The notes under the pieces are model-generated. The model was not told where the DNA came from. It saw only the letters and a list, made by a program, of their open reading frames with translations, and made no database searches. DNA of 43,314 nt from Candidatus Kerfeldbacteria bacterium (GTDB lineage: Bacteria; Patescibacteriota; Patescibacteriia; SBBC01). Below are positions 3,949 through 42,856 of the stretch, in pieces. The position numbers were made by a program, and so were the translations under genes. Where the stretch lies: NCBI GenBank assembly GCA_016207275.1, contig JACQPY010000005.1:1-43314 (forward strand), given 5' to 3'. Each line of letters opens with the position of its first letter. Within the stretch, counting starts at the first letter, position 1.

Positions 3949-4023
3949 GCGCGCGGATGTGACCAAACTGGCATACTCCGCAGTTGTTCTCACTTTGATC
4001 GAACAGTGCGGGGCAGGCGCGCC
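3949..4023 (+). ncRNA. tRNA-derived structured element A (not a canonical tRNA)
   Basis: GCGCGC/GCGCGC closing stem, a D-loop-like AACTGGCATAC block, a 13-bp hairpin CTCCGCA-GTTGTTC / GAACAG-TGCGGGG and an 11-nt loop TCACTTTGATC. There is no T arm. Confidence 0.4.
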
Positions 4024-4035
4024 AGGATGGGTGGT

Positions 4036-4106
4036 GCGCGAGTGGCGGAACTGGCATACCCCGCACAACTCCTCGCAGAGCTCGGAGTATGCGGGGCGCA
4101 GCGCGC
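4036..4106 (+). ncRNA. tRNA-derived structured element B (paralogue of A)
   Basis: GCGCG/CGCGC closing stem, TGGCGGAACTGGCATAC (near-identical to the D arm of the adjacent tRNA-Leu), hairpin CCCCGCA-AACTCC / GGAGT-TGCGGGG and an 11-nt loop TCGCAGAGCTC. Confidence 0.4.
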
Positions 4107-9425: not shown

Positions 9426-9488
9426 GGGCGGGAGAATCCCGAACCCCGCGTTGCTCGTTCGGGACGGCGCCTCTCGTCCAGACTCGGG

Positions 9489-9562
9489 TGGGCGGCAGAG
9501 GACTCGAACCTCTGACCTTCACAATGTCAATGTGACGCTCTAACCAACTGAGCTAGCCGCCC
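9489..9562 (-). tRNA. tRNA-Val (anticodon GAC), CCA not encoded
   Basis: Manual cloverleaf: GGGCGGC TA GCTC-AGTTGGTTA-GAGC G TCACA-TTGACAT-TGTGA AGGTC AGAGG-TTCGAGT-CCTCT GCCGCCC A. Confidence 0.9.
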
Positions 9563-9594
9563 ACCCGAGTCTGGATTGTCAAGAATTACTTACT

Positions 9595-9678
9595 CCACAA
9601 TGCTTGCCCCGTGAAGTTGAGCGAAGCGAAACTTTTACGGGGTCAATGTGGCGCTCTAACCAACTGAGCTACGAACCT
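9595..9678 (-). pseudogene. tRNA-Val-like 5' portion with a 40-nt hairpin inserted in the anticodon loop; no T arm or 3' acceptor strand
   Basis: AGGTTCG TA GCTC-AGTTGGTTA-GAGC G CCACA TTGAC[CCCGTAAAAG...CACGGGGCAAGC]AT TGTGG. The D arm is identical to that of the intact tRNA-Val 30 nt downstream. Confidence 0.6.
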
Positions 9679-9689
9679 ATGAACCAGAA

Positions 9690-9885
9690 GGTGCGGGATC
9701 AATGTAACGCTCTATCCTGGGCTTCGGTGCGCCTCTGGCGCATACCTCAGCCCGTTCTCCCCCGCACCAGGCGCTTGCGCTTCGGTGCGGGGTCGAACCC
9801 AACTGAGTCCCGATACTCGCTCTACGGACGAGTATCGAGGATCCTCGACCGCCTCATGAGGCGGTCGGGACTAACCGCCCGTTCG
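9690..9885 (-). other. leader of the tRNA-Val operon, made of further tRNA 5' fragments interleaved with palindromic modules
   Basis: GGGCGGTTAG | 67-nt four-way module (9806-9872: AGTCCCGA/TCGGGACT closing stem plus three hairpins) | CTCAGTTGGGT | CCCCGCACC..GGTGCGGGG hairpin | GGATAGAGCG TTACA TTGAT | CCCGCACC. Confidence 0.5.
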
Positions 9886-11753: not shown

Positions 11754-11816
11754 GGTTCTCCCGCGGAGTGGGATCCCGCCTTCCTTGAATTGTTAAGTCA
11801 ATGTGGCGGGAGAACC
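11754..11816 (+). repeat. REP-like hairpin, family TCCCGCC-N24-GGCGGGA (copy b), with an alternative outer arm
   Basis: TCCCGCC (11774-11780) / GGCGGGA (11805-11811) with loop TTCCTTGAATTGTTAAGTCAATGT. GGTTCTCCC (11754-11762) can alternatively pair with GGGAGAACC (11808-11816). Confidence 0.6.
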
Positions 11817-11946
11817 TAGGACTGGTCGTGTACCCCGCACGATGACCCCCTTTCGGCAAGCTCAAGGTCGTCAAATGCGGGGCAAGTCCGCCCAGCATCG
11901 GAGTGAAACGACTGGTGCTGGGTAAGACGACCGCCTGGGCACTTAG

Positions 11947-16619: not shown

Positions 16620-17645
16620 ATGGCTGATGTTCCCTACCGACCGAGCGTTAAACTCGGGTCGTTGCGACAGACCACCAAGAAAATGATGGTCACGAAAGTC
16701 AGTGGTTCGAACGTTGGCGAGCAGAAGCTAAAAAAGTTTTTACAGGAAGATAAAGGACTCCGTCGAGCCGCCTACGGTGATCAACGACAGACCATGGAGT
16801 CGTGGCGCGCCCGGCACTACTTCAAGGACGTTAAAGAAAAGGTCAAGGGCTCGGCCCAGTATCGGGAGACGCTCTACGGCAAAAAGACAACGGCGACCCG
16901 GGAGTTTCGTGACACGGTTCGGGAAGAAGTTCGGCAGGACGAAGCGGCTCACCCGGCCGGACCGGGTAAGGACGAGCCGGAGCGACAGCATCGCCTGGAG
17001 CACGCCAAGCAAAGCCTCCACCGTTACGAGCAGGCTAAACAAATTGAACGCGAACAAGGAAAGCCGCTGGAAGCAGTTCATGATCGGAGCGATGGCGGCC
17101 CGGCTACGTCGATAACCGCGCAGACGGTCAAGCCGACGTCAGCGGGCGGCGGGTCAGTCAAAGGCGTACCGCTGGCTGGCAGCGGGCCGGGCGGGGGTGG
17201 CCACGCGCCGGCTGGCGGGACCGCGGCGCCAGCTGGTCTGGGCAGTACGACGGCCGTCTCGACAAAGGCTGCTGCGGTACCGCCTATTTTTGGCTTGCGC
17301 GGGCGCGTCCTCCGATCCGCCCCGGATCAAGTCGGGGGTCAGGGCAGTGAGCTGCTGGTGCGGGTGCTCAATGCGCCGCCCGAACTGGCCGTGTTTATTG
17401 GCCGCGACCGAAGTTTAACCGTCGACGCTAACACCCGGTACGTTCGTGATCGCGCGTCCAGCTCGGCTAACGAGGTGGTGGTCGGCGATTTGATTGATGT
17501 CCGCGGTAAGGTTGTACATGAAGCGTTTATGGCTGACGAAGTGTACGTCAACAACAGCGAACTGCCGGATTTTGTCATTCACCTGAGCAGTTCGGAGGTG
17601 TCGAAAGATGTACCGATTCAGCCACCGAGTGAATTAGCAATTTAG
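16620..17645 (+). CDS. hypothetical protein with a Gly/Ala/Pro-rich central region
   Basis: 341-aa ORF with a basic N-terminal half, a low-complexity centre and a beta-rich C-terminus. No family recognised. Confidence 0.55.
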   Translation: MADVPYRPSVKLGSLRQTTKKMMVTKVSGSNVGEQKLKKFLQEDKGLRRAAYGDQRQTMESWRARHYFKDVKEKVKGSAQYRETLYGKKTTATREFRDTVREEVRQDEAAHPAGPGKDEPERQHRLEHAKQSLHRYEQAKQIEREQGKPLEAVHDRSDGGPATSITAQTVKPTSAGGGSVKGVPLAGSGPGGGGHAPAGGTAAPAGLGSTTAVSTKAAAVPPIFGLRGRVLRSAPDQVGGQGSELLVRVLNAPPELAVFIGRDRSLTVDANTRYVRDRASSSANEVVVGDLIDVRGKVVHEAFMADEVYVNNSELPDFVIHLSSSEVSKDVPIQPPSELAI

Positions 17646-21686: not shown

Positions 21687-21742
21687 GCCCCGCACCACTC
21701 CCCATTCGACTCACTCCGTTCGCTTAGGATCAGGTGCGGGGC
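21687..21742. repeat. hairpin with GCCCCGCACC / GGTGCGGGGC termini
   Basis: 10-bp perfect arms around a 36-nt loop. The same termini occur at 9758-9790 and 34381-34487. Confidence 0.6.
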
Positions 21743-21847: not shown

Positions 21848-22468
21848 TCAGCAGAGTTTTTTGATCCGCTCCCAATCCACGTACACGAATGGTGGCTGAC
21901 CATAGCGGTCTTCAAGCGCCTCCTTTTTGTAGTTGTGGATGATGTAGTCGACCGTGTTGGCCAGGCGGCTGTGAGTTTCGACGATGCGGAAGTTAGAGCG
22001 GTGTTGCCAGAACTTGCCCTTAGGAAGGGTTCGTGAAAACGTGCCCTTGATCGACCGCATGAGGTCTGACAGCGTGTACTGCTGACAAGGCGTACATCGC
22101 CGACTGGCCCCGCCATCCGACGGGGTCCCGCCGTCCTTAGAATTCTTAGATAAATGTGGCGGGAAGAGTCGACGATGTGGGAAGAGGAAGGCCGCAGGTG
22201 AGCGCCTGCACGCTGCCTCACAACGTACTCTCTCAAGAGTGCGTTGTGAGCCGAGAAGCACACCATGGCTGAGTTTTCGCACCAGCAGGTGAACGTGATT
22301 CGGCAGGATGCAGTAAGCGAGAAGATCGAAGTTTTTCAACTTACAGCACGTCTGGATGGTCTGGCCAAGAACAGTCGCCCGTTCTGGCGTGACGAAAAAA
22401 CACCGTCGATCCTGGACGTTTACGGTCACAAAGTAGATATAGTCCCCATCAACGGCGCGTTGAGTCAT
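21848..22468 (-). CDS. REP-associated tyrosine transposase (RAYT, IS200/IS605-like Y1 transposase) carrying an in-frame insert
   Basis: HUH motif LPNHVHLLV, then SDLMRSIKG, WQHRSNFRIV and the C-terminal Tyr motif VDYIIHNY. About 64 aa of repeat-derived sequence lie between the HUH block and the following conserved helix. Confidence 0.7.
   Translation of the reverse strand: MTQRAVDGDYIYFVTVNVQDRRCFFVTPERATVLGQTIQTCCKLKNFDLLAYCILPNHVHLLVRKLSHGVLLGSQRTLERVRCEAACRRSPAAFLFPHRRLFPPHLSKNSKDGGTPSDGGASRRCTPCQQYTLSDLMRSIKGTFSRTLPKGKFWQHRSNFRIVETHSRLANTVDYIIHNYKKEALEDRYGQPPFVYVDWERIKKLC
22079..22270. repeat. repeat-derived insertion inside the RAYT gene
   Basis: Contains REP-like copy c (TCCCGCC 22125-22131 / GGCGGGA 22157-22163, loop GTCCTTAGAATTCTTAGATAAATGT), hairpin CCCCGCCATCCGACGGGG and the 9-bp hairpin CTCACAACG..CGTTGTGAG. 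Confidence 0.55.
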
Positions 22469-28994: not shown

Positions 28995-28995
28995 T

Positions 28996-29050
28996 CCGAA
29001 TCTACGAATGTGGGCGAAACTACGAATTTGTTGATTCGTACTATTCGTAG
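28996..29050. repeat. TTCGTA-rich inverted repeats upstream of the GxxExxY ORF
   Basis: CGAATCTACGAAT..CTACGAAT..ATTCGTACTATTCGTAG. The reverse complement of 29534-29572 shares GAATCTACG and GCGAAT blocks with it. Confidence 0.45.
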
Positions 29051-29110
29051 CTTCGAGACGACTCACTGCCCTGTTGACAAAAGAAGCATAATACTATATA
29101 CGAGATATAG

Positions 29111-29560
29111 GTGGCGATGGTTAACGCCGCCGGATTTATTATGGAAACATCAAGGACCCTGCGAAAAGATATTATTGAAAAGGAGTTGTCATATCAATTG
29201 GTAGGCATTTTCTTTCACGTGCAGGAACAGTTAGGAAGATATTGTCGAGAGATTCAATATTGCGATGCCCTTGAACAAGAATTGAAAATCCGAAAAATAC
29301 AGTATCAACGAGAATATTCCATTCCGGTTGCTGGCAGATTATCGAATCGAATTGACTTTCTCATTGCCGCTCGTGTGATTGTCGACGTTAAGGCTAAACC
29401 ATTCGTCGAACGTGAGGATTACGACCAGATGCGCAGGTATCTTCAGAGTGCTAATGTCAAACTCGGAATGATTGTCAATTTCCGAAATAAATTTCTTCTA
29501 CCAAAACGCGTTCTGAACCCTGCTTACGAACCCCATTCGCATAATTCGCATCTTCCGTAG
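29111..29560 (+). CDS. GxxExxY family protein (PD-(D/E)XK-like; often encoded in rRNA intervening sequences)
   Basis: ELSYQLVGIFFHV, CREIQYCDALEQEL, RIDFLIAARVIVDVKA and GMIVNF match the family layout. The segment is AT-rich. The likely start is METSRT at 29141. Confidence 0.8.
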   Translation: MAMVNAAGFIMETSRTLRKDIIEKELSYQLVGIFFHVQEQLGRYCREIQYCDALEQELKIRKIQYQREYSIPVAGRLSNRIDFLIAARVIVDVKAKPFVEREDYDQMRRYLQSANVKLGMIVNFRNKFLLPKRVLNPAYEPHSHNSHLP

Positions 29561-29572
29561 ATTCGTACTATA
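29534..29572. repeat. TTCGTA-rich repeat at the 3' end of the GxxExxY ORF
   Basis: CATTCGCATAATTCGCATCTTCCGTAGATTCGTACTATA, the inverted partner of 28996-29050. Confidence 0.45.
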
Positions 29573-29663
29573 CCCATTGACGTTAAGTCGGGGAAAATGG
29601 TAAAGAGCGGTCAGGAGCAGCTCGCTGAAAACTGAATAGCACCTTTTTCGTGAAAGGGCACGT

Positions 29664-29933
29664 ATGGGACCCCAGTGGGTAATTCTCCGTACCTTTGCTC
29701 TGACACGAAATGTCCGAGCATTGGCAGTCGGCGACCTTGTGCAATTCGAGGTTATGAGCGAAGAGAGCCGTTCCATTTCGCGACTGAAGGTAACGATTTC
29801 GAAAGTCTCTGATGTTGATGAGGCTGACGAAAGGCGTAACTTCGAAGGCGAAACGCGGATTGGGAAGAAGTCGATCCTGGTTCAAGGTACGCTGTCGGAA
29901 AAAATCGGATCAGGCCGGATGGTGCAGCGATAA
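29664..29933 (+). CDS. hypothetical small protein (89 aa)
   Basis: ORF directly upstream of the patatin gene on the same strand. No family recognised and no clear SD. Confidence 0.35.
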   Translation: MGPQWVILRTFALTRNVRALAVGDLVQFEVMSEESRSISRLKVTISKVSDVDEADERRNFEGETRIGKKSILVQGTLSEKIGSGRMVQR

Positions 29934-29958: not shown

Positions 29959-30891
29959 GTGTTCGAATTGCGGCGGAACCATCCGGTGGTTAAGCGGTTG
30001 CGGTGGAAGCAGCAGATGGGTTCAGGCGCCAAGCACATCCGTCCGCTCCTCTTGGTTACGAGCGGCGGGATGCGCGGCGTCTACGGCGGCGGTACGGTTT
30101 TGGCCTTGCGTGAGCTTGGACTACTTGACGCCTTCGACGTGGTCGTCGGAATCTCAGCTGGCGGACCGATCGCCGCCTACAGCTTGGCTGGTGATCAGCA
30201 GGCAGAAGTCGGTGTCTCGGTCTACCTCGAAGAGTGCACCGGCGGTCCACCAACGAACTACCCGTTCATCGCGCTGTATCGACTGTCCAAGATCGTCGAC
30301 GTTGACTTCCTACACTTCGTCTTCGGACTTGGTCGGAAGCGAATTGACGTCGAGGCGGTTCGACGGTCGCGGCCGGACTTCTACCTGGGCGCGTTCAACG
30401 TCGAGACCAGACAGCTCGACGTGATCAACGCCAAGACGGCTGAGCCCGACATGCTGACCGCGATCAAAGCCTCGATGGCGATCGTCGGCTGCGTCGAGGA
30501 GCCGGTCTCGCTGAACGGCAGCCGGTACCTTGACGGCTGGCTTGACCCGTTGCCGCTGCAGCAACTGGTCGAGCGATTTCAGCCGACGGATATGATCGTC
30601 GTGCCCAACTGTACTGTCCAGCAGATGCAGCAGCGGACAACGGTTAGCCCGACCGTGGTGGCGCTGGCAACGCTGGCGCTCCGCTACCGATCGCGTCGGA
30701 TCGTGGAGGCGGTTCTAACGGAACCTCGTCGTATCGCCCAGTCACTGCGCTGGCTGAAGCAGCAGCACCAGGTCAATGTCGGCGTGCTGTGGGCGCCGGA
30801 CAACAGCGTTCATCAGCTGACGACTGATCCGAAGAAGCTTCTAAGGGCTATGAAACTGGCTCACTGGAAGACGTTAGAGGCCTTCAAGTAG
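29959..30891 (+). CDS. patatin-like phospholipase
   Basis: Oxyanion loop TSGGMRG, nucleophile elbow GISAG and catalytic Asp in LDGWLD. The start is GTG 29959, preceded by GAGGAGG. The alternatives are GTG 29950 and ATG 30016; the ORF-track start at 29812 overlaps the upstream ORF. Confidence 0.8.
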   Translation: MFELRRNHPVVKRLRWKQQMGSGAKHIRPLLLVTSGGMRGVYGGGTVLALRELGLLDAFDVVVGISAGGPIAAYSLAGDQQAEVGVSVYLEECTGGPPTNYPFIALYRLSKIVDVDFLHFVFGLGRKRIDVEAVRRSRPDFYLGAFNVETRQLDVINAKTAEPDMLTAIKASMAIVGCVEEPVSLNGSRYLDGWLDPLPLQQLVERFQPTDMIVVPNCTVQQMQQRTTVSPTVVALATLALRYRSRRIVEAVLTEPRRIAQSLRWLKQQHQVNVGVLWAPDNSVHQLTTDPKKLLRAMKLAHWKTLEAFK

Positions 30892-30893
30892 TC

Positions 30894-30945
30894 GCATCAG
30901 CCCCGTACTGCAAAAATTGTGGTACGGGGTCAGCCGGATGCTGAC
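30894..30945 (+). repeat. double-hairpin intergenic module E1
   Basis: CCCCGTAC-N13-GTACGGGG followed by TCAGC-CGGAT-GCTGA. It begins 3 nt after the patatin stop and ends 25 nt before the next ATG. Confidence 0.6.
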
Positions 30946-30969
30946 TGTCGGAACAAAAGGAGGAGTCAC

Positions 30970-31401
30970 ATGCGTCCACGGACAGTTGTTTGGAATCTCG
31001 CAGCAGTTGCGGCGGCTGTATTCCTCGTTATCCTCATCGGGCAGAGGTCAACACAACCTTTGAGGGGGGTCGAAGTTCCTGAGGAATTCAGGGCCTATCT
31101 CAACACGCGCGATTTCCTCGCCAAGGCGGAACTTCTATCGACGCAGCACCTTCTGGAAACCACCGTGCGATGGAAGATCGAAGTGCGCGTACTCGACTGC
31201 TCGGACAAAGCCCTACGAGGCAGCCGCGTCGAGCTGTACTCGCTGCGCCGCCCGCCCGAGCTTCGTCAAGGCGCGATCGTGCTCGTCTACGGAAAGAAGA
31301 CCGTTTCAGACGGCGGTCGTCTCTGGGGAAGCGTCTTGCCAATCGTGACCGGACCCGACGGTCGCAAGCGCGTTGCCCTCGACGACACGGCAGTACCGTG
31401 A
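30970..31401 (+). CDS. hypothetical membrane-anchored protein (143 aa)
   Basis: AAGGAGGAG upstream of the ATG, an N-terminal TM helix (VVWNLAAVAAAVFLVILI) and a beta-rich remainder. Confidence 0.55.
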   Translation: MRPRTVVWNLAAVAAAVFLVILIGQRSTQPLRGVEVPEEFRAYLNTRDFLAKAELLSTQHLLETTVRWKIEVRVLDCSDKALRGSRVELYSLRRPPELRQGAIVLVYGKKTVSDGGRLWGSVLPIVTGPDGRKRVALDDTAVP

Positions 31402-31418
31402 TTTGAAGATCCCGCGCC

Positions 31419-31467
31419 TGCCCCGTACTACAACAGGTTTTAGTAATACGGGGTCAGCCGGAGGCTG
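31419..31467 (+). repeat. double-hairpin intergenic module E2
   Basis: CCCCGTA-N19-TACGGGG followed by TCAGCC-GGA-GGCTGA. Confidence 0.6.
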
Positions 31468-31492
31468 ATTGTTCTCTATGCGGAGGTGACGA

Positions 31493-31675
31493 ATGGCTTC
31501 GAAGAAGGCCGTGAAACTTCCGGAGGAAATCCGGAAAGAAGTACGCGCTCAGGTTCGCGCCTACTTTCAAGAACCGGATGTCTGGATGGAGCGGTACATT
31601 CACTACTGTTTCCAGCGCTGGTTGCGTGAGGGCAAGTTGAAGCTTCCGAGGACGCGGACTCGACGGAAGAAGTAA
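31493..31675 (+). CDS. hypothetical small basic protein (60 aa)
   Basis: GGAGGTG upstream. MASKKAVKLPEEIRKEV...PRTRTRRKK. Confidence 0.5.
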   Translation: MASKKAVKLPEEIRKEVRAQVRAYFQEPDVWMERYIHYCFQRWLREGKLKLPRTRTRRKK

Positions 31676-31687
31676 CTGAGTCAGCCC

Positions 31688-31735
31688 CGTGCTACGTTGG
31701 GTGCGGGGCAGGCCGGATGCTGATTCGTGTCGTAC
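31688..31735 (+). repeat. double-hairpin intergenic module E3
   Basis: CCCCGTGC-N8-GTGCGGGG followed by CAGGCCGGATGCTGA. The 5' GAGTCAGC can alternatively pair with GCTGATTC. Confidence 0.6.
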
Positions 31736-31751
31736 GAAAGGAGAGTTCCCA

Positions 31752-32084
31752 ATGTGGCAGACCCTACTGGAAGGAATCGGTTACCTGATGTTGGTTGCGA
31801 ACCTCGTTCACGCCATCTGGATGATGAAGCGCGTGTTCCCCGTCGATCAAGACAACGACAGCGTGTTCTGCACGCCGTTCAACATCGGTATGGCTGCGGC
31901 CATCTTGACCGCCTTTCCGTTCAGCTTCATGGCGCCGTTTCGTCCGCTGATCTCCGGGTGGTTTCCAGTCTTCATCGCACTCGGCTCGGTCATCTTCCAC
32001 CTGATCTACAACACCCCGATTCTCAGTCGGGCAGCGAAGCATCACGAATTCCGACATGGAGTCAGGTCGTTCTGGATGTTCTAG
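31752..32084 (+). CDS. hypothetical membrane protein (110 aa, about 3 TM helices)
   Basis: AAGGAGAG upstream. MWQTLLEGIGYLMLVANLVHAIWMM... Confidence 0.55.
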   Translation: MWQTLLEGIGYLMLVANLVHAIWMMKRVFPVDQDNDSVFCTPFNIGMAAAILTAFPFSFMAPFRPLISGWFPVFIALGSVIFHLIYNTPILSRAAKHHEFRHGVRSFWMF

Positions 32085-32121
32085 CCCGTCTCATCCGGAA
32101 GCTGACAAGTAAGGAGGGTTG

Positions 32122-32301
32122 ATGACCAAACGCAAAAAGCCCCGACGAAAAACAACGGGGACGAAAGTCCGTCGACCCAGCCTCGCGCGACTGCTCGACG
32201 CGTTGTGGCAAGCGATCGAGAAGCATGACGAGAGAACCTTCAAACTGCCGAAACGGCCGTCGCGCAAATCTTGGATTCACCCAGCCCGTCGGGCCGATTA
32301 G
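32122..32301 (+). CDS. hypothetical small basic protein (59 aa)
   Basis: AAGGAGGG upstream. MTKRKKPRRKTTGTKVRRPSLARLLDALWQAIEKH... It is preceded by a partial module (CCGGAAGCTGA). Confidence 0.45.
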   Translation: MTKRKKPRRKTTGTKVRRPSLARLLDALWQAIEKHDERTFKLPKRPSRKSWIHPARRAD

Positions 32302-32332
32302 ATCTGGAGGATTGCTCGCGAATCGAAAAACA

Positions 32333-32439
32333 CTCCCCGCTCCCATTCTGTCATCCCGAGCGGAGCGAGGGATCTCCACACAAACTGCGGTGTGTTGGAG
32401 ACCCTTCGACTTCGTCTCAGGGTGACAGGGGGCGGGGAG
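32333..32439. repeat. 107-nt nested palindromic element (copy P1)
   Basis: Outer arms CTCCCCGC / GCGGGGAG. Inner 31-nt arms CTGTCATCCCGAGCGGAGCGAGGGATCTCC / GGAGACCCTTCGACTTCGTCTCAGGGTGACAG. Confidence 0.7.
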
Positions 32440-32474
32440 TTGCTGTATCCAGTAATGAGGAATACCCTGAAATC

Positions 32475-34380: not shown

Positions 34381-34487
34381 CCCCCGCACCCTGTCACTCT
34401 GAGGCGAAGCCGAAGAGCCTCCAACAGACTACAGCCTGGCTGGAGATCCTTCGCTGACGCTCAGGATGACAGGATGGGTGCGGGGGG
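34381..34487. repeat. 107-nt nested palindromic element (copy P2)
   Basis: Outer arms CCCCCGCACC / GGTGCGGGGG. Inner arms CTGTCACTCTGAGGCGAAGCCGAAGAGCCTCC / GGAGATCCTTCGCTGACGCTCAGGATGACAG. It lies between convergent genes. Confidence 0.7.
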
Positions 34488-35776: not shown

Positions 35777-35840
35777 GTCCAAGCAATCATACCGCCGATA
35801 CAGCGGCGGGCTACTGATAACCGTCAACTGTTAACTGATT

Positions 35841-36245
35841 ATGCTCACCATCCGTCTCCGCCGCATCGGCAAACGCCGGCACGCCACCTTCCGCTTCGTG
35901 GTGATGGAAAAATCGCGCAGTCCGCAGAGCCGGGCGGTTGAATTCGTCGGCTCGTACGATCCCCACGCCGATCCGCCGACGGTCAACCTTAAACGCGACC
36001 GCGTGGAGCACTGGCTGAAGGTTGGCGCCCAGCCGTCTGAAACTGTCCATAATATTTTAGTTGATGCCGGGTTGGTAACTGGTCCAAAGGTGAAGGTGGC
36101 TAAGCCGAAGAAGAAAGAAGCTCCGGCTGAACCATCCGCTGCCGCCGCTCCGGCCGCGCCAGAGGCAAAAACTGAAGAGAAGAAAGAGGAAAAGACTGAA
36201 GTCAAGGCGGAGGCTAAAACTGAAGCGTCGGCTGAGGCGAAGTAA
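35841..36245 (+). CDS. rpsP: 30S ribosomal protein S16 with Ala/Lys/Glu-rich C-terminal tail
   Basis: MLTIRLRRIGKRRHATFRFVV...YDP...RVEHWLKVGAQPSETV. Confidence 0.9.
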   Translation: MLTIRLRRIGKRRHATFRFVVMEKSRSPQSRAVEFVGSYDPHADPPTVNLKRDRVEHWLKVGAQPSETVHNILVDAGLVTGPKVKVAKPKKKEAPAEPSAAAAPAAPEAKTEEKKEEKTEVKAEAKTEASAEAK

Positions 36246-36510
36246 CTGGCTACGCGCCGGGGACTACCCCGTACCGTCACCTCGAGCAACGCGAGAGGTC
36301 TCATTTTCATCGGGATTTCTCGCTACACTCGAAATGACGGCTTTTTTTGGGGTCCGGCGCAAGCGGGTTGACGTCGGCTAGGAGCCGCTGGTACCCTGGG
36401 TAGTATCCACGAGCTGGGGAAGGGGCAGGAATCTCCGCTGTACCCGAGGTCGACAGACTCGCTGGCAATGATAGTTCGAACTGTACGGTAACGAATCTAC
36501 TGAGCACTGT

Positions 36511-38457: not shown

Positions 38458-39879
38458 ATGGACGACGCCGTTCCGATTCCGTCTGGAGGGCTGAAGAAGT
38501 ACCTGAGCGTGCTGGCGCACCGGAATTTTCGCTTACTCTGGCTCGCCCAGGTCTGCGCCAAGCTCTCGGAAAACTTCCTGAACTTTGCGCTGGTCATCCT
38601 GCTGTTTCAGGTGACCAACTCGACGTTCCTGGTATCGGTGTTGGTGGCCTTGGTGTCGATTCCGCCGATTCTGTTTTCGGCCGGCGCCGGCGTATTCGCC
38701 GATTCGTACAACCGCAAGAAAATTATGTTAGCGACCAACTTCTTGCGTTTGTTGCTGGTGGTGCCGGTGTTGGTCTCATGGCAAGAACCGTCATTCCTGC
38801 TCGGTAGCGCGTTTGTCCTGGCCGTGTTCGCGCAGTTCTTTTCCCCGGCGGAAGTGGCATCGATTCCGACGCTCGTCCCGAAAGAACAGCTCTTTACGGC
38901 CAATGCTTTCTACCAGTTCACCGGCTACGCCGCCTTTCTGCTCGGCTACTCGCTGGCCGGACCGTCGCTCCATCGTCTCGGTGAAGGATCGACGTTGCTG
39001 ATTTCCCTTGGCTTGTACGCGCTCGCCGTGATCCTGGTGGCCTTCTTACCGAACCTCAACGCCCACCTGCTGAAACTGTCGCAGATCGAACTCGCAGTTC
39101 ACCGAAGTTACCGGCAGTTCTGGCAGCGCCTGCTCGAAGGCGTGCGGTTCATCCGCCAGCATCCCGTGGTGTTATTCATCATCATTCAAGTCGGAGTGCT
39201 GTTCGCGATAGAAAAGAGTTTCATCTCCCTCGCCCCGTCGTTCTCGCAAAACCTCCTGAGGTTCAACGTCGAAGAGCTGAGCTTGTTCCTGATCGTGCCG
39301 ACCGGCATCGGCGCGTTCGTCGGCGCCATCGTGGCCAACGCGGTCAGGGGTAAATTCCAAAAAGACCACTTGATCAGTTTTGGCATGGTGCTCGATGGTA
39401 TTGCATTGTTTTTCTTGGCATTCATAACGCAGATCGTTGATTTCGGCGTTGGCCTGGGGTTGTCAGCGGCCGTCGCCCTGAAAACGTTCGTGGTGATGAT
39501 GGCCTTCCTGTCCGGATTTGCCGATCCGTTCATTATCATTTCTGCACAAACGGCTATCCATGAACTGGTACCGAACGAAGACCGCGGCCGCGTGTTCGGC
39601 GTGCTCTACACAGTCATCAACACCATGAGCATCGTTCCGGTGCTGATCATCGGCGCATTAACTACACGCGGCATTGCCATTCAGGCGATTGTCGTTGGCC
39701 TGGGGCTGGTCATCCTGGCAGCCGCGGTCATTGGCGTGGTGTACTATCGTGGACATCATCTGGGAAGAGAGGCTCCCACCACCCCCTCCCTCATCGCCCC
39801 CGATCGAGTCGGGGCTGCTCGGGACACCCCTTCCCGAAACAAGTTCGGGACAGGCTCTCGGGCAGGAGGGGATGTATAA
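38458..39879 (+). CDS. MFS transporter
   Basis: 473 aa with about 12 TM helices and N-terminal FRLLWLAQVCAKLSENF typical of the MFS_3/EntS-like group. The last 35 or so codons run into repeat-like sequence, so the C-terminus is uncertain. Confidence 0.8.
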   Translation: MDDAVPIPSGGLKKYLSVLAHRNFRLLWLAQVCAKLSENFLNFALVILLFQVTNSTFLVSVLVALVSIPPILFSAGAGVFADSYNRKKIMLATNFLRLLLVVPVLVSWQEPSFLLGSAFVLAVFAQFFSPAEVASIPTLVPKEQLFTANAFYQFTGYAAFLLGYSLAGPSLHRLGEGSTLLISLGLYALAVILVAFLPNLNAHLLKLSQIELAVHRSYRQFWQRLLEGVRFIRQHPVVLFIIIQVGVLFAIEKSFISLAPSFSQNLLRFNVEELSLFLIVPTGIGAFVGAIVANAVRGKFQKDHLISFGMVLDGIALFFLAFITQIVDFGVGLGLSAAVALKTFVVMMAFLSGFADPFIIISAQTAIHELVPNEDRGRVFGVLYTVINTMSIVPVLIIGALTTRGIAIQAIVVGLGLVILAAAVIGVVYYRGHHLGREAPTTPSLIAPDRVGAARDTPSRNKFGTGSRAGGDV

Positions 39880-42090: not shown

Positions 42091-42856
42091 CACATTGTCG
42101 ATAATTATTGTCGTTCCCCGCGTCTGCGGGGACCCATCAACAAGGAGACGATAGATTCGGCACTACACATTTGCGCACATTGAACTGAACTGATCCCAGC
42201 TCAAGGCTGGGAAGAGAAGACAGGGATTGCTGAAGTTTTGGCACTCACTGTTTTTGTTTGCCAGGCGAGCCAAAGGCCTTTGGCTCTTAGTTCCCTCGCC
42301 TCAGCACGAAGTAAATTCGTGCTTCGGCCCGAGCCGATCCACATTAGTTGCTGCTCACCACCGGTGACTAGACAAGTGATGTGAATCCTGGATCCACGAG
42401 GATGCCAGTGGTCTCAATGGGACCCTTCGTCCGCAGTAGCGGAACTCAGGGTTTCAGTCGAGGCCCCGCCTCTCCTGAAATTTGACAACTGAAGTGCGGT
42501 AAGGAAACTCCGTAAATCCCGTCGAATGACGGGACACGGGGTAAAGAGCCCCCTGTACCAGTCGCCCGCCATTCGGCGTGGCTCCGGTGCAGGGTTAGAC
42601 GTGATCGTCGGAGCAGCGAGGGTTGAGTTTCAGGGCCAGGGCACCCATAAAATTCTTTAGGAATTTTATGGGAACCCGCCAGAGCGTTTTTTATAGCTCG
42701 TTTGGATTCCTGCTCCCCTCACTCCTCCGACGGTCCGTCACCAAGTCAATTCTAAACGGTCTTAAGCGATTCCCCCGTCATCCTCGTGATGATGTCTCAA
42801 GTGAATCGCGCCGCGGCTGGGTCCCCCGATCAAGTCGGGGGTAACCACCGCGGGTC

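What the first reader, a model, noticed from the sequence alone, without database searches (positions are those of the whole stretch)
29959..32301. Patatin-like phospholipase operon with four small membrane or basic proteins, separated by a repeated double-hairpin module
A patatin-like lipase (GGMRG oxyanion loop, GISAG nucleophile, DGW catalytic Asp) is followed on the same strand by four short ORFs, each with a strong SD. They are a 143-aa membrane-anchored protein, a 60-aa Lys/Arg-rich protein, a 110-aa protein with about 3 TM helices, and a 59-aa Lys/Arg-rich protein.

Three consecutive intergenic gaps carry the same ~50-nt module. It starts 3-18 nt after the upstream stop codon and consists of hairpin CCCCGTRC..GYACGGGG followed by TCAGCCGGAKGCTGA, ending 17-26 nt before the next ATG. 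A fourth gap keeps only CCGGAAGCTGA. A 5' TCAGC, the second TCAGC and GCTGA could pair alternatively, as in an attenuator or processing switch.

Patatin lipases serve as membrane-attacking effectors in known anti-phage systems such as CBASS CapV. No cyclase, sensor or other known partner is recognisable here, and none of the small proteins matches a family I know. The layout of ORF, conserved structured junction, ORF also resembles a cassette array.
Basis: partly seen in the sequence, partly recalled or inferred. Interest (0 to 1): 0.72.

Follow-up and report, generated by a model that had tools for sequence, protein, structure and literature searches.

The report
Variable small-gene array with repeated junctions
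A lipase gene in an uncultured groundwater-type bacterium is followed by four real small genes separated by copies of a repeated hairpin-plus-motif junction; a related genome carries the same junctions around partly different genes, so this looks like a reshuffling accessory gene array rather than a known anti-phage system.

Summary
A patatin-fold lipase gene (29959-30891) is followed on the same strand by four small ORFs with strong ribosome-binding sites. Three gaps carry a ~50-nt module and the fourth a remnant. The module occurs nowhere else in the 43 kb window.

The module is composite.
- Hairpin 1 (CCCCGYRC..GYRCGGGG, flank CARGC) belongs to a palindrome family dispersed through the window. 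One copy lies beside a REP-associated tyrosine transposase-like gene.
- The second half is best described as an 11-nt box, CCGGANGCTGA, not a conserved hairpin. It is specific to the array.

ORF110 and ORF59 have homologues under purifying selection on one related contig (L072). That array carries the same box and hairpin, but between partly different ORFs. Hairpin 1 is present or absent at orthologous junctions. The window's fourth junction is a hybrid of two L072 modules, which indicates a box-to-box indel.

Six patatin relatives are solitary in unrelated contexts. No cyclase, sensor or integrase was found. The proposed alternative-pairing switch is not conserved.

Best reading: a recombining accessory small-gene array punctuated by REP-like junction repeats. 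Defence-system membership is unsupported. A true site-specific cassette system remains possible but unproven.

The parts
29664..29933 (+). ORF89, a small protein of unknown function and probably the first gene of the unit
   Evidence: ORF list. Best coding score in its own frame. No family hit. Called on an independent Logan assembly of the same population.
29959..30891 (+). Patatin-like serine lipase, 310 aa, GTG start
   Evidence: PF01734 at E=1.8e-10. GGMRG, G64-S66-G68 and D192 are invariant in 16 homologues. AF2 pLDDT 87.7; Foldseek top hits CapV, PlpD, CapE and patatin at TM 0.5-0.6 and 12-17% identity. Only 16 relatives among 5.8 billion proteins.
30897..30944 (+). Junction module J1: TCAGC, a 13-bp hairpin, then TCAGCCGGATGCTGA
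   Evidence: Its 5' 15-mer CGCATCAGCCCCGTA is identical to module Ma of the related contig L072.
30970..31401 (+). ORF143, an N-terminal membrane anchor plus a beta-rich domain; no known relatives
   Evidence: The single-sequence AF2 model is unusable (pLDDT 35). No PDB, Pfam, PADLOC or PHROG hit.
31417..31468 (+). Junction module J2: its left flank GCGCCTGCCCCGTAC matches the dispersed palindrome family, followed by the box TCAGCCGGAGGCTGA
31493..31675 (+). ORF60, a Lys/Arg-rich small protein; no known relatives
31681..31723 (+). Junction module J3: the hairpin's 3' arm and flank GTGCGGGGCAGGC are identical to dispersed copies at 4006 and 21734, followed by the box CCGGATGCTGA
   Evidence: The orthologous junction in L072 lacks the hairpin but keeps the box.
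31752..32084 (+). ORF110, a conserved small membrane protein with about 3 TM helices and an invariant AFPF motif
   Evidence: Exhaustive HMMER search found 3 relatives (69%, 34% and 30% identity) plus one marginal hit. Alignment A2. dN/dS 0.19 against L072.
32085..32105 (+). Junction J4: box only (CCGGAAGCTGA), without hairpin 1; a hybrid of L072 modules Ma (left part) and Mb (right part)
32122..32301 (+). ORF59, a Lys/Arg-rich small protein with a conserved core VRRPSLARLL.ALW.AIEKHD.RTFK
   Evidence: 63% identity to ORF71 of L072. Core dN/dS 0.11.
32331..32441 (.). Long nested palindrome (outer arms CTCCCCGC/GCGGGGAG, -76 kcal/mol) closing the array; the boundary is orthologous in L072
   Evidence: A Logan contig of the same population ends inside it.
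21688..21741 (.). Dispersed family member (GCCCCGCACC..GGTGCGGGGCAGGC), 107 nt from the 3' end of the RAYT-like gene
21848..22468 (-). REP-associated tyrosine transposase-like gene with an in-frame insertion
   Evidence: NF047646 at E=4.4e-19 and 68.8 bits, below the 80-bit cut-off, in two matched stretches. Pfam Y1_Tnp at E=1.1e-7.
34382..34487 (.). Second long nested palindrome of the same family (CCCCGCACC..GGGTGCGGGG, -66 kcal/mol), between convergent genes

Best explanation
The locus is an accessory, strain-variable operon-like array (ORF89, patatin-like lipase, ORF143, ORF60, ORF110, ORF59) in a small-genome uncultured bacterium.

**What the junction repeat is.** It has two layers.
1. 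A GC-rich palindrome of the genome's own REP-like family (consensus GCYTGCCCCGYRC ... GYRCGGGGCARGC). The same contig encodes a RAYT-like transposase.
2. An array-specific 11-nt box, CCGGANGCTGA, lying 14-34 nt upstream of the next start codon.

**Shown.**
- The repeats mark the points where ORF content differs between related genomes.
- Segments are gained or lost box-to-box.
- The palindrome comes and goes at orthologous junctions.

**Inferred.**
- The repeats act as substrates for recombination, either homologous or slippage-type between short direct repeats, or an unidentified site-specific activity. This shuffles small-gene units behind the lipase gene.
- On the polycistronic mRNA the stable hairpins, 5-15 nt past each stop codon and lacking U-tracts, act as REP-type intercistronic barriers or stabilisers. 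These would set the relative expression of each cistron.
- The lipase is a solitary membrane-lipid enzyme of a rare family. It is not the effector of a recognised defence system, and its link to the small genes is local to this lineage.
For: **Module is real and array-restricted in the window:**

**Hairpin 1 belongs to a dispersed family.**
- 8 palindromes carry CCCCGYR/YRCGGGG arms, where I estimate about 0.1 by chance (hand calculation from base composition, not a tool result).
- The 13-mer GTGCGGGGCAGGC recurs at 4006, 21734 and 31701.
- The CARGC flank is shared by 7 arms.
- A RAYT-like gene lies at 21848-22468 with a family member 107 nt away.
- One family member sits at an orthologous site beside tRNA-Leu in the syntenic relative L003.

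**Related array L072.**
- ORF110 and ORF59 homologues are present, with dN/dS of 0.19 and 0.11.
- The box core is invariant in 7 of 7 junctions, and the hairpin is present in 5 of 7.
- Different ORFs (ORF79, ORF105, ORF108, ORF92) lie between the shared ones.
- J4 equals the left part of Ma plus the right part of Mb.
- L072 contains an internal duplication of the ORF92 start.
- The 3' boundary palindrome is orthologous.
- dS is about 1.07, yet a 15-mer and the box are identical at non-orthologous junctions. This implies constraint, conversion or spread.

**Native-like codon usage of all ORFs:**

**Patatin relatives are solitary and relocated:**
Against: - Only one related array, a 2.6-kb contig, is available. 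'Variable array' therefore rests on a single comparison. Its upstream end is cut, so patatin linkage there is unknown.
- Homology breakpoints around ORF59/ORF71 do not all fall at boxes, so part of the mosaic is ordinary divergence or illegitimate recombination.
- No RNA data exist, so the RNA-level role is inferred from REP literature recalled from memory.
- The strand preference of hairpin 1 is mixed: J1 and J3 fold better on the + strand, J2 and Ma on the - strand. There is therefore no sequence signature of selection on the transcript.
- The rest of the genome could not be searched. The box could occur elsewhere, or the full module could be common.
- The RAYT match is below the curated cut-off, and the gene carries an insertion.
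Confidence: 0.55

Rival explanations
1. This is a genuine site-specific gene-cassette system analogous to an integron but with a different site. Hairpin 1 plus CCGGANGC|TGA would be the attC-like recombination site folded from single-stranded DNA. Each unit (SD, ORF(s), hairpin, half-box) would be a mobile promoterless cassette. It would be inserted or excised by an unidentified recombinase, possibly the HUH/RAYT-type enzyme, which cleaves at a fixed distance from a hairpin foot.
For: - Same-strand ORFs are each followed by the site.
- The stem base and flanks are conserved while the centre varies.
- The L072 segment ORF79-ORF105 is bounded by two boxes, and the window holds a single hybrid box at that point.
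- Module copies are near-identical at non-orthologous junctions despite dS of about 1.
- A RAYT-like gene lies on the same contig.
Against: - No integrase or other recombinase lies next to the array or anywhere in the 43 kb.
- There are no R''/R' core sites (RYYYAAC/GTTRRRY).
- Two of seven boxes lack the hairpin.
- The last ORF has no closing module.
- Several L072 junctions have no module at all.
- Some breakpoints lie inside ORFs.
- Recombination between short direct repeats explains the hybrid box equally well.
- The module was not found in GTDB representative genomes, JGI metagenomes or IMG/VR.
Confidence: 0.15
2. The locus is an anti-phage or other conflict system in which the patatin lipase is a membrane-attacking effector. 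The small membrane and basic proteins would be its sensors, regulators or immunity partners, as in CBASS CapV or phospholipase effector-immunity arrays.
For: - The patatin fold's best structural matches include CapV and CapE.
- The locus lies in a variable island next to a low-GC GxxExxY/PD-(D/E)XK gene.
- Two small partners are membrane proteins.
- The ORF110 family is followed by a Lys/Arg-rich small ORF in three genomes.
Against: - PADLOC hits are weak and cover only the N-terminus. The CapV equivalog model scores 12 bits against a cut-off of 200.
- TM-scores of 0.5-0.6 at 12-17% identity show a generic patatin fold only.
- No cyclase, sensor or NTPase is present.
- Five patatin relatives with readable flanks are solitary, one beside a fatty-acid desaturase.
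- ORF110 relatives occur without patatin.
- The Lys/Arg-rich neighbours are not detectably homologous to each other.
Confidence: 0.1
3. The module is a dedicated cis-regulatory RNA. It would be an attenuator or processing switch using alternative pairing of the 5' TCAGC, the second TCAGC and GCTGA, or a binding site for one of the basic small proteins. It would control each downstream cistron.
For: - It has a fixed position between the stop codon and the next SD.
- The box is conserved 14-34 nt before 7 start codons in two genomes.
- J1 folds significantly better than shuffles (z = -3.1).
- The small Lys/Arg-rich proteins could bind nucleic acid.
Against: - Both alternative helices can form only in J1. 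The outer pairs of hairpin 2 form in 2 of 5 copies, and there is no significant covariation.
- J2 and J3 are not significantly more stable than shuffles.
- There is no Rfam match and no U-tract.
- Hairpin 1 is dispensable at two junctions.
- Strand preference is mixed.
Confidence: 0.1

Closest known systems
REP/BIME elements and REPINs with their RAYT transposases (E. coli, Pseudomonas)
   Same: - Short GC-rich extragenic palindromes with a shared stem base and flank.
- They are dispersed through the genome, placed just after stop codons and inside operons, and sometimes clustered.
- A RAYT-like gene has a family member beside it.
- Long hairpin (REPIN-like) versions occur at 32331-32441 and 34382-34487.
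   Different: - The full module adds an array-specific box that is not seen at the other family members.
- Copies sit in consecutive junctions of one small-ORF array and recur around different ORFs in a relative.
- A conserved GTAG head is not evident.
- The RAYT match is below the curated cut-off.
- Genome-wide abundance is unknown.
Integron cassette arrays, and CALINs (attC clusters lacking an integrase)
   Same: - A same-strand series of short, apparently promoterless ORFs, each followed by an imperfect palindrome with conserved ends and a variable centre.
- ORF content differs between relatives.
- No integrase is nearby, as in CALINs.
   Different: - There are no RYYYAAC/GTTRRRY core sites.
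- The architecture is asymmetric (hairpin plus a 3' box).
- Some units hold several ORFs without sites.
- The hairpin is missing at 2 of 7 boxes.
- No IntI was found anywhere in 43 kb.
CBASS with a CapV/CapE patatin effector
   Same: Patatin fold with a Ser-Asp dyad and a glycine-rich oxyanion loop. CapV and CapE are the best structural matches.
   Different: - No CD-NTase or other signalling partner is present.
- The CapV model score is far below its cut-off.
- Relatives are solitary genes in housekeeping-like contexts.
Solitary bacterial patatin-like proteins (COG4667-type 'predicted patatin/cPLA2 family phospholipase')
   Same: Size of about 310 aa, the same motifs and a stand-alone occurrence. 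One relative carries this JGI name.
   Different: This family is very rare (16 sequences found) and reaches Pfam only over its N-terminal 50 residues.

Membership tests
Patatin-like phospholipase (PF01734) | Profile match above the gathering score | tested here: met
   41.8 bits against a cut-off of 27.7, E=1.8e-10.
Patatin-like phospholipase (PF01734) | Gly-rich oxyanion loop GGxR/K, nucleophile elbow GxSxG and catalytic Asp in a DG/DD motif | tested here: met
   GGMRG (36-40), G64-x-S66-x-G68 and D192 are invariant in 16 homologues.
Patatin-like phospholipase (PF01734) | Patatin alpha/beta fold | tested here: met
   AF2 pLDDT 87.7 and pTM 0.90. Foldseek probability 1.00 to CapV, PlpD, CapE and patatin.
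CBASS (CapV effector type) | Adjacent CD-NTase cyclase | tested here: not met
   No such domain in any neighbouring ORF (Pfam, PADLOC, NCBIfam).
CBASS (CapV effector type) | Lipase matches the CapV equivalog model | tested here: not met
   NF041079 scores 12.3 bits against a cut-off of 200. PADLOC phospholipase E=0.0036, N-terminus only.
Integron / CALIN | attC sites with R''(RYYYAAC)/R'(GTTRRRY) core sites | tested here: not met
   The junction sequences contain no GTTRRRY or RYYYAAC pair. This was checked by eye only; no attC covariance model was available.
Integron / CALIN | IntI tyrosine recombinase next to the array (required for a complete integron, not for a CALIN) | tested here: not met
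   No Phage_integrase-type hit in the window ORFs that were scanned.
Integron / CALIN | Array of same-strand ORFs, each followed by a structured site, with cassette content varying between relatives | tested here: met
   Window against L072. This is a single comparison only.
REP / REPIN-RAYT | Short GC-rich imperfect palindromes in extragenic positions with shared sequence | tested here: met
REP / REPIN-RAYT | High copy number dispersed over the genome | tested here: inconclusive
   At least 9 family members lie in 43 kb, and the octamer GYRCGGGG occurs 19 times against 10 expected. The rest of the genome is not available. The full module with the box is seen only in the array.
REP / REPIN-RAYT | Cognate RAYT gene flanked by family members | tested here: inconclusive
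   NF047646 scores 68.8 bits, below the cut-off of 80, and the gene carries an insertion. A family member is present on one flank only.
REP / REPIN-RAYT | Conserved 5' tetranucleotide (GTAG-type) head | tested here: inconclusive
   GTAG lies upstream of 21688 and of J1, but at variable distance. In J1 it overlaps the stop codon.
Intrinsic terminator | GC-rich stem followed by a U-tract | tested here: not met
   Only the small second hairpin of J2 passes the scan. Hairpin 1 copies have no T-run.
Known cis-regulatory RNA (Rfam) | Match to a curated covariance model | tested here: not met
   No hit at gathering score, and nothing on the modules at E<=10.

The most novel reading that the evidence does not exclude
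The array is a previously undescribed gene-cassette platform in a candidate-phylum-type bacterium. Its recombination site would be a REP-derived hairpin plus the box CCGGANGC|TGA, with the crossover inside the box. It would be processed as single-stranded DNA by a HUH/RAYT-type or unknown recombinase. It would capture and reshuffle small membrane and basic proteins behind a lipase gene. That would make it a functional analogue of integrons built from REP machinery.
Probability: 0.15. Interest if true: 0.8.

Novelty: new variant of a known kind. Interest (0 to 1): 0.45.

Why it matters
If the junction repeats drive gain and loss of small genes, this gives a concrete, testable case of how reduced-genome uncultured bacteria diversify small membrane and basic proteins without integrons or obvious mobile-element genes. 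It would also extend the roles of REP-type palindromes from RNA punctuation to structuring variable gene arrays.

The work also removes a tempting mis-annotation, 'patatin equals defence effector'. This rare patatin family behaves as a solitary, relocating lipid enzyme.

The evidence base is thin, resting on one related contig. For now this is a well-documented lead rather than a discovery.

Tried and rejected
1. **Concatenated query.** One homology search used all five small proteins joined together. It returned nothing, not even self-hits, so the search was wasted.
2. **ORF110 word-index search.** It found only itself. The exhaustive HMMER search was needed to find relatives.
3. **Module pattern in GTDB representative genomes.** 62 single hits, all lacking the 5' arm and mostly in coding sequence of high-GC genomes. 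These are chance.
4. **Strict module pattern in JGI metagenomes.** 0 hits.
5. **ORF110-family search in JGI metagenomes and IMG/VR.** Nothing.
6. **Looser patterns in IMG/VR.** Chance only.
7. **AF2 on ORF143 without an alignment.** pLDDT 35, unusable.
8. **PDB sequence searches for ORF143, ORF60, ORF59 and the ORF110 profile.** Nothing credible.
9. **Paralogy among the small ORFs, and their presence near patatin relatives.** None found.
10. **GU wobbles as a transcript-strand signature.** I first took wobbles in J1 and J3 as evidence that the sense RNA strand is favoured. I rejected this after folding both strands of all copies, because J2 and Ma favour the other strand.
11. **5-bp TCAGC target-site duplication around hairpin 1.** It holds only for J1 and was not pursued.
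12. **Second patatin paralogue at the position syntenic with L003 (1071-1940).** There is no similarity.
14. **Literature search for integrons or attC in Patescibacteria.** Nothing relevant.


Full report
**1. Observation**

- A 310-aa ORF at 29959-30891 (GTG start) carries GGMRG, GISAG and DGW.
- It is followed on the + strand by ORF143 (30970-31401), ORF60 (31493-31675), ORF110 (31752-32084) and ORF59 (32122-32301).
- Each small ORF sits behind an AGGAGG-type ribosome-binding site.
- A further small ORF, ORF89 (29664-29933), lies directly upstream of the lipase gene.

Three gaps carry a roughly 50-nt module:
- J1 at 30897-30944
- J2 at 31417-31468
- J3 at 31681-31723

The fourth gap, J4 at 32085-32105, keeps only CCCGT...CCGGAAGCTGA.

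Chance does not explain this.
- The hairpin pattern had no match in 100 shuffles.
- The exact box CCGGAKGCTGA occurs three times in 43 kb, all in this locus.
- The repeat finder returns the 26-nt family independently.

**2. The proteins**

*The lipase.*
- It is a patatin-fold enzyme: Pfam PF01734 at E=1.8e-10.
- The oxyanion loop, GxSxG and the catalytic Asp are invariant across 16 homologues.
- The AF2 model has pLDDT 87.7. Its best PDB matches are CapV, PlpD, CapE and potato patatin, at TM 0.5-0.6 and 12-17% identity. That indicates a generic patatin fold, not a CapV orthologue.
- PADLOC and NCBIfam give only weak N-terminal hits. The CapV model scores 12 bits against a cut-off of 200.
- The family is rare, with 16 sequences among 5.8 billion.

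*The small ORFs.*
- None has a Pfam, NCBIfam, PADLOC, PHROG or PDB match.
- They are not paralogues of one another.
- All score best in their annotated frame, with host-like GC3 of 0.65-0.78.
- An exhaustive HMMER search found three ORF110 relatives at 69%, 34% and 30% identity, sharing an invariant AFPF motif, plus one marginal hit to an unrelated repetitive protein.
- ORF59 has a 63%-identical homologue on the same contig as the closest ORF110 relative.
- dN/dS is 0.19 for ORF110 and 0.11 for the ORF59 core. At least these two are real, constrained genes.

**3. Is the lipase linked to the small genes?**

Six patatin relatives were placed on contigs.
- L001 is cut 65 nt after the stop and shows no module.
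- L002 lies after a CYTH-domain gene.
- L003 is a true relative of this genome, with 66-79% nucleotide identity and synteny over PolyA-pol, RluD, L19, PNP and Pro_dh. Its patatin gene sits at the Pro_dh locus, not next to SMC.
- L005 lies after a Xer-like recombinase gene.
- L079 is solitary.
- L113/L114 lie next to a fatty-acid desaturase gene.

None has the small ORFs downstream. More distant ORF110 relatives (L073, L074) have neither patatin nor the module.

So the lipase is a relocating, solitary gene, and its association with the array is local. No cyclase, sensor or integrase is present in the window. The defence-system reading therefore has no positive support beyond the fold.

**4. The module is composite**

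*Hairpin 1.* It belongs to a family of GC-rich palindromes spread over the window, all extragenic:
- 4059-4096
- 9760-9792
- 11833-11882
- 21688-21741
- two roughly 110-nt nested palindromes at 32331-32441 (-76 kcal/mol) and 34382-34487 (-66 kcal/mol)

Shared sequence ties the array copies to this family.
- The 13-mer GTGCGGGGCAGGC occurs at 4006, at 21734 and in J3.
- J2's left flank read on the other strand (GTACGGGGCAGGCGCG) matches the copy at 4006.
- Seven arms share the flank CARGC.

A gene at 21848-22468(-) matches the REP-associated tyrosine transposase model at E=4.4e-19 and 68.8 bits. That is below the 80-bit cut-off, and the gene carries an in-frame insertion. A family member lies 107 nt from its 3' end. 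One family member is conserved at the orthologous site beside tRNA-Leu in L003. Hairpin 1 is thus a REP-like element of this lineage.

*The second half.*
- A full 5-bp stem exists only in J1 and J2.
- Across five copies the outer two pairs form in 2 of 5.
- The alternative outer helix forms in 3 of 4 and shows no covariation.
- What is conserved is the sequence CCGGANGC(T)GA.

*The proposed switch.* It is not conserved. Strand preference of hairpin 1 is mixed, and Rfam has no match.

**5. The related array**

The closest ORF110 homologue lies on a 2.6-kb Logan contig, L072. Its layout, in order, is:
1. a box without a hairpin (CTGAGACCGGATCCTGAC)
2. the ORF110 homologue
3. module Ma (TCAGCCCCGTAG..CACGGGACAGGCCGGAAGC)
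4. ORF79
5. ORF105
6. a truncated duplicate of the ORF92 start
7. module Mb (..GCGGGGCGGGCCGGACGCTGAC)
8. ORF108, a membrane protein
9. ORF71, the ORF59 homologue
10. ORF92
11. a CTCCCCGC..GGGGAG palindrome at a boundary orthologous to the window's 32331-32441

Four points follow.
- The box core is invariant in 7 of 7 junctions of the two genomes, 14-34 nt before the next start codon. Hairpin 1 is present in 5 of 7.
- At orthologous junctions the hairpin is present in one genome and absent in the other, in both directions.
- The window's J4 aligns with the left part of Ma up to CCGGAAGC and with the right part of Mb from TGACAAG. The ORF79-ORF105 segment is therefore an indel bounded box-to-box.
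- J1's CGCATCAGCCCCGTA is identical to Ma's although they follow unrelated genes. The synonymous distance between the genomes is about 1.07.

The junction repeats are therefore maintained or spread, and they coincide with points of gene gain and loss. Not every breakpoint is at a box. The ends of ORF59 and ORF71 diverge inside the coding region, and several L072 junctions have no module.

**6. Distribution**

- The 3' part of the module (the 3' hairpin arm plus the box) gave only chance hits in 185,579 GTDB representative genomes and in IMG/VR.
- The full module gave none in JGI metagenomes.
- A relaxed hairpin-plus-half-box pattern gave chance hits only in IMG/VR.
- The small proteins are singletons at 90% identity. 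They are seen only on assemblies of the same population.
- The rest of the source genome was not available. Whether the full module is confined to the array genome-wide remains open.

**7. Interpretation**

Best supported (confidence about 0.55): this is an accessory, variable small-gene array behind a solitary patatin-like lipase, punctuated by REP-family palindromes fused to an array-specific box.
- Shown: the repeats are non-random, conserved across two lineages, and coincide with indels.
- Inferred: they serve as recombination substrates. On the mRNA, the stable hairpins just past each stop codon, lacking U-tracts, would act as REP-type intercistronic barriers. That role rests on established knowledge of E. 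coli REP/BIME elements recalled from memory, not tested here.

Rivals:
- A true site-specific cassette system with a novel site (about 0.15). It is attractive because of the hybrid box. It lacks a recombinase, a closing site and consistent breakpoints.
- A defence or effector-immunity system (about 0.1).
- A dedicated riboregulator (about 0.1).

**8. Verdict**

The locus is not a member of CBASS or of integrons, because defining features were tested and not met. It works most like REP/BIME-punctuated operons, with a CALIN-like variable layout. Novelty: a new variant of a known kind. Interest is moderate (0.45). A minority reading, a REP-derived cassette platform, would be of high interest if further genomes or read-level evidence confirmed it.

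Noticed in passing
window 32331-32441 and 34382-34487: Two roughly 110-nt near-perfect nested palindromes (-76 and -66 kcal/mol). Outer arms are CCCCGC(ACC); inner arms are TGTCAYYCYGAG..CGARGR..CTCC. They look like REPIN- or MITE-type elements. A Logan assembly of the same population breaks inside the first one.
   Followed up: partly
window 21848-22468 (-), with 22123-22164 and 11770-11811: The RAYT-like gene is about 60 codons longer than the model. The extra in-frame stretch contains a 42-nt repeat (GGGNCCCGCC...TGTGGCGGGA) that also occurs near tRNA-Ile. This suggests a small element inserted into the transposase gene.
   Followed up: partly
window 28995-29600: A GxxExxY / PD-(D/E)XK_3 gene (29111-29560) has GC3 of 0.41 against about 0.7 for host genes. 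It sits in the only low-GC kilobase of the window (0.46) and is flanked by TACGAAT/ATTCGTA inverted repeats. It looks like a recently acquired mini-element immediately upstream of the array.
   Followed up: partly
window 9563-9830: Upstream of tRNA-Val (9486-9563, -) lies a partial duplicate of the tRNA (9631-9671, 85% identical to 9515-9555), plus another T-arm-like fragment fused to family palindromes. This may be a scar of integration at the tRNA gene.
   Followed up: no
window 17320-17339, 39797-39816, 42823-42842: A second short hairpin family, CCCC(C/G)GATC(A/G)AGTCGGGG(G/C)T, has three copies. One lies 15 nt upstream of the start of the 16S rRNA match.
   Followed up: no
L072 397-431: The ORF110 homologue has an in-frame TGA where the window has CGA. 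The next 10 codons (HGIRPSWLF) remain conserved, and more distant relatives also end in FWF. This could be a recent nonsense mutation, a sequencing error or read-through.
   Followed up: partly
L003 6935-6970: The patatin homologue of the syntenic relative ends inside a hairpin, GAACCCCGTAG..CGGACGGGGTTC, with the same CCCCGTA stem base as J1 and L072 Ma. The lipase gene may therefore have carried a hairpin of this type at its 3' end before the array formed.
   Followed up: partly
window 36162-36242: Three tandem 24-nt units (GAGGCNAAAACTGAAG...) lie in the region where ORFs 35831-36310 (-) and 35841-36245 (+) overlap; which of the two is the real gene was not checked.
   Followed up: no
window 30970 vs 31060: The NCBI annotation of this contig calls ORF143 as 113 aa (TTG start at codon 31) and ORF89 as 59 aa. 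The longer ATG starts have far better Shine-Dalgarno sequences, and the independent Logan gene calls use them.
   Followed up: partly
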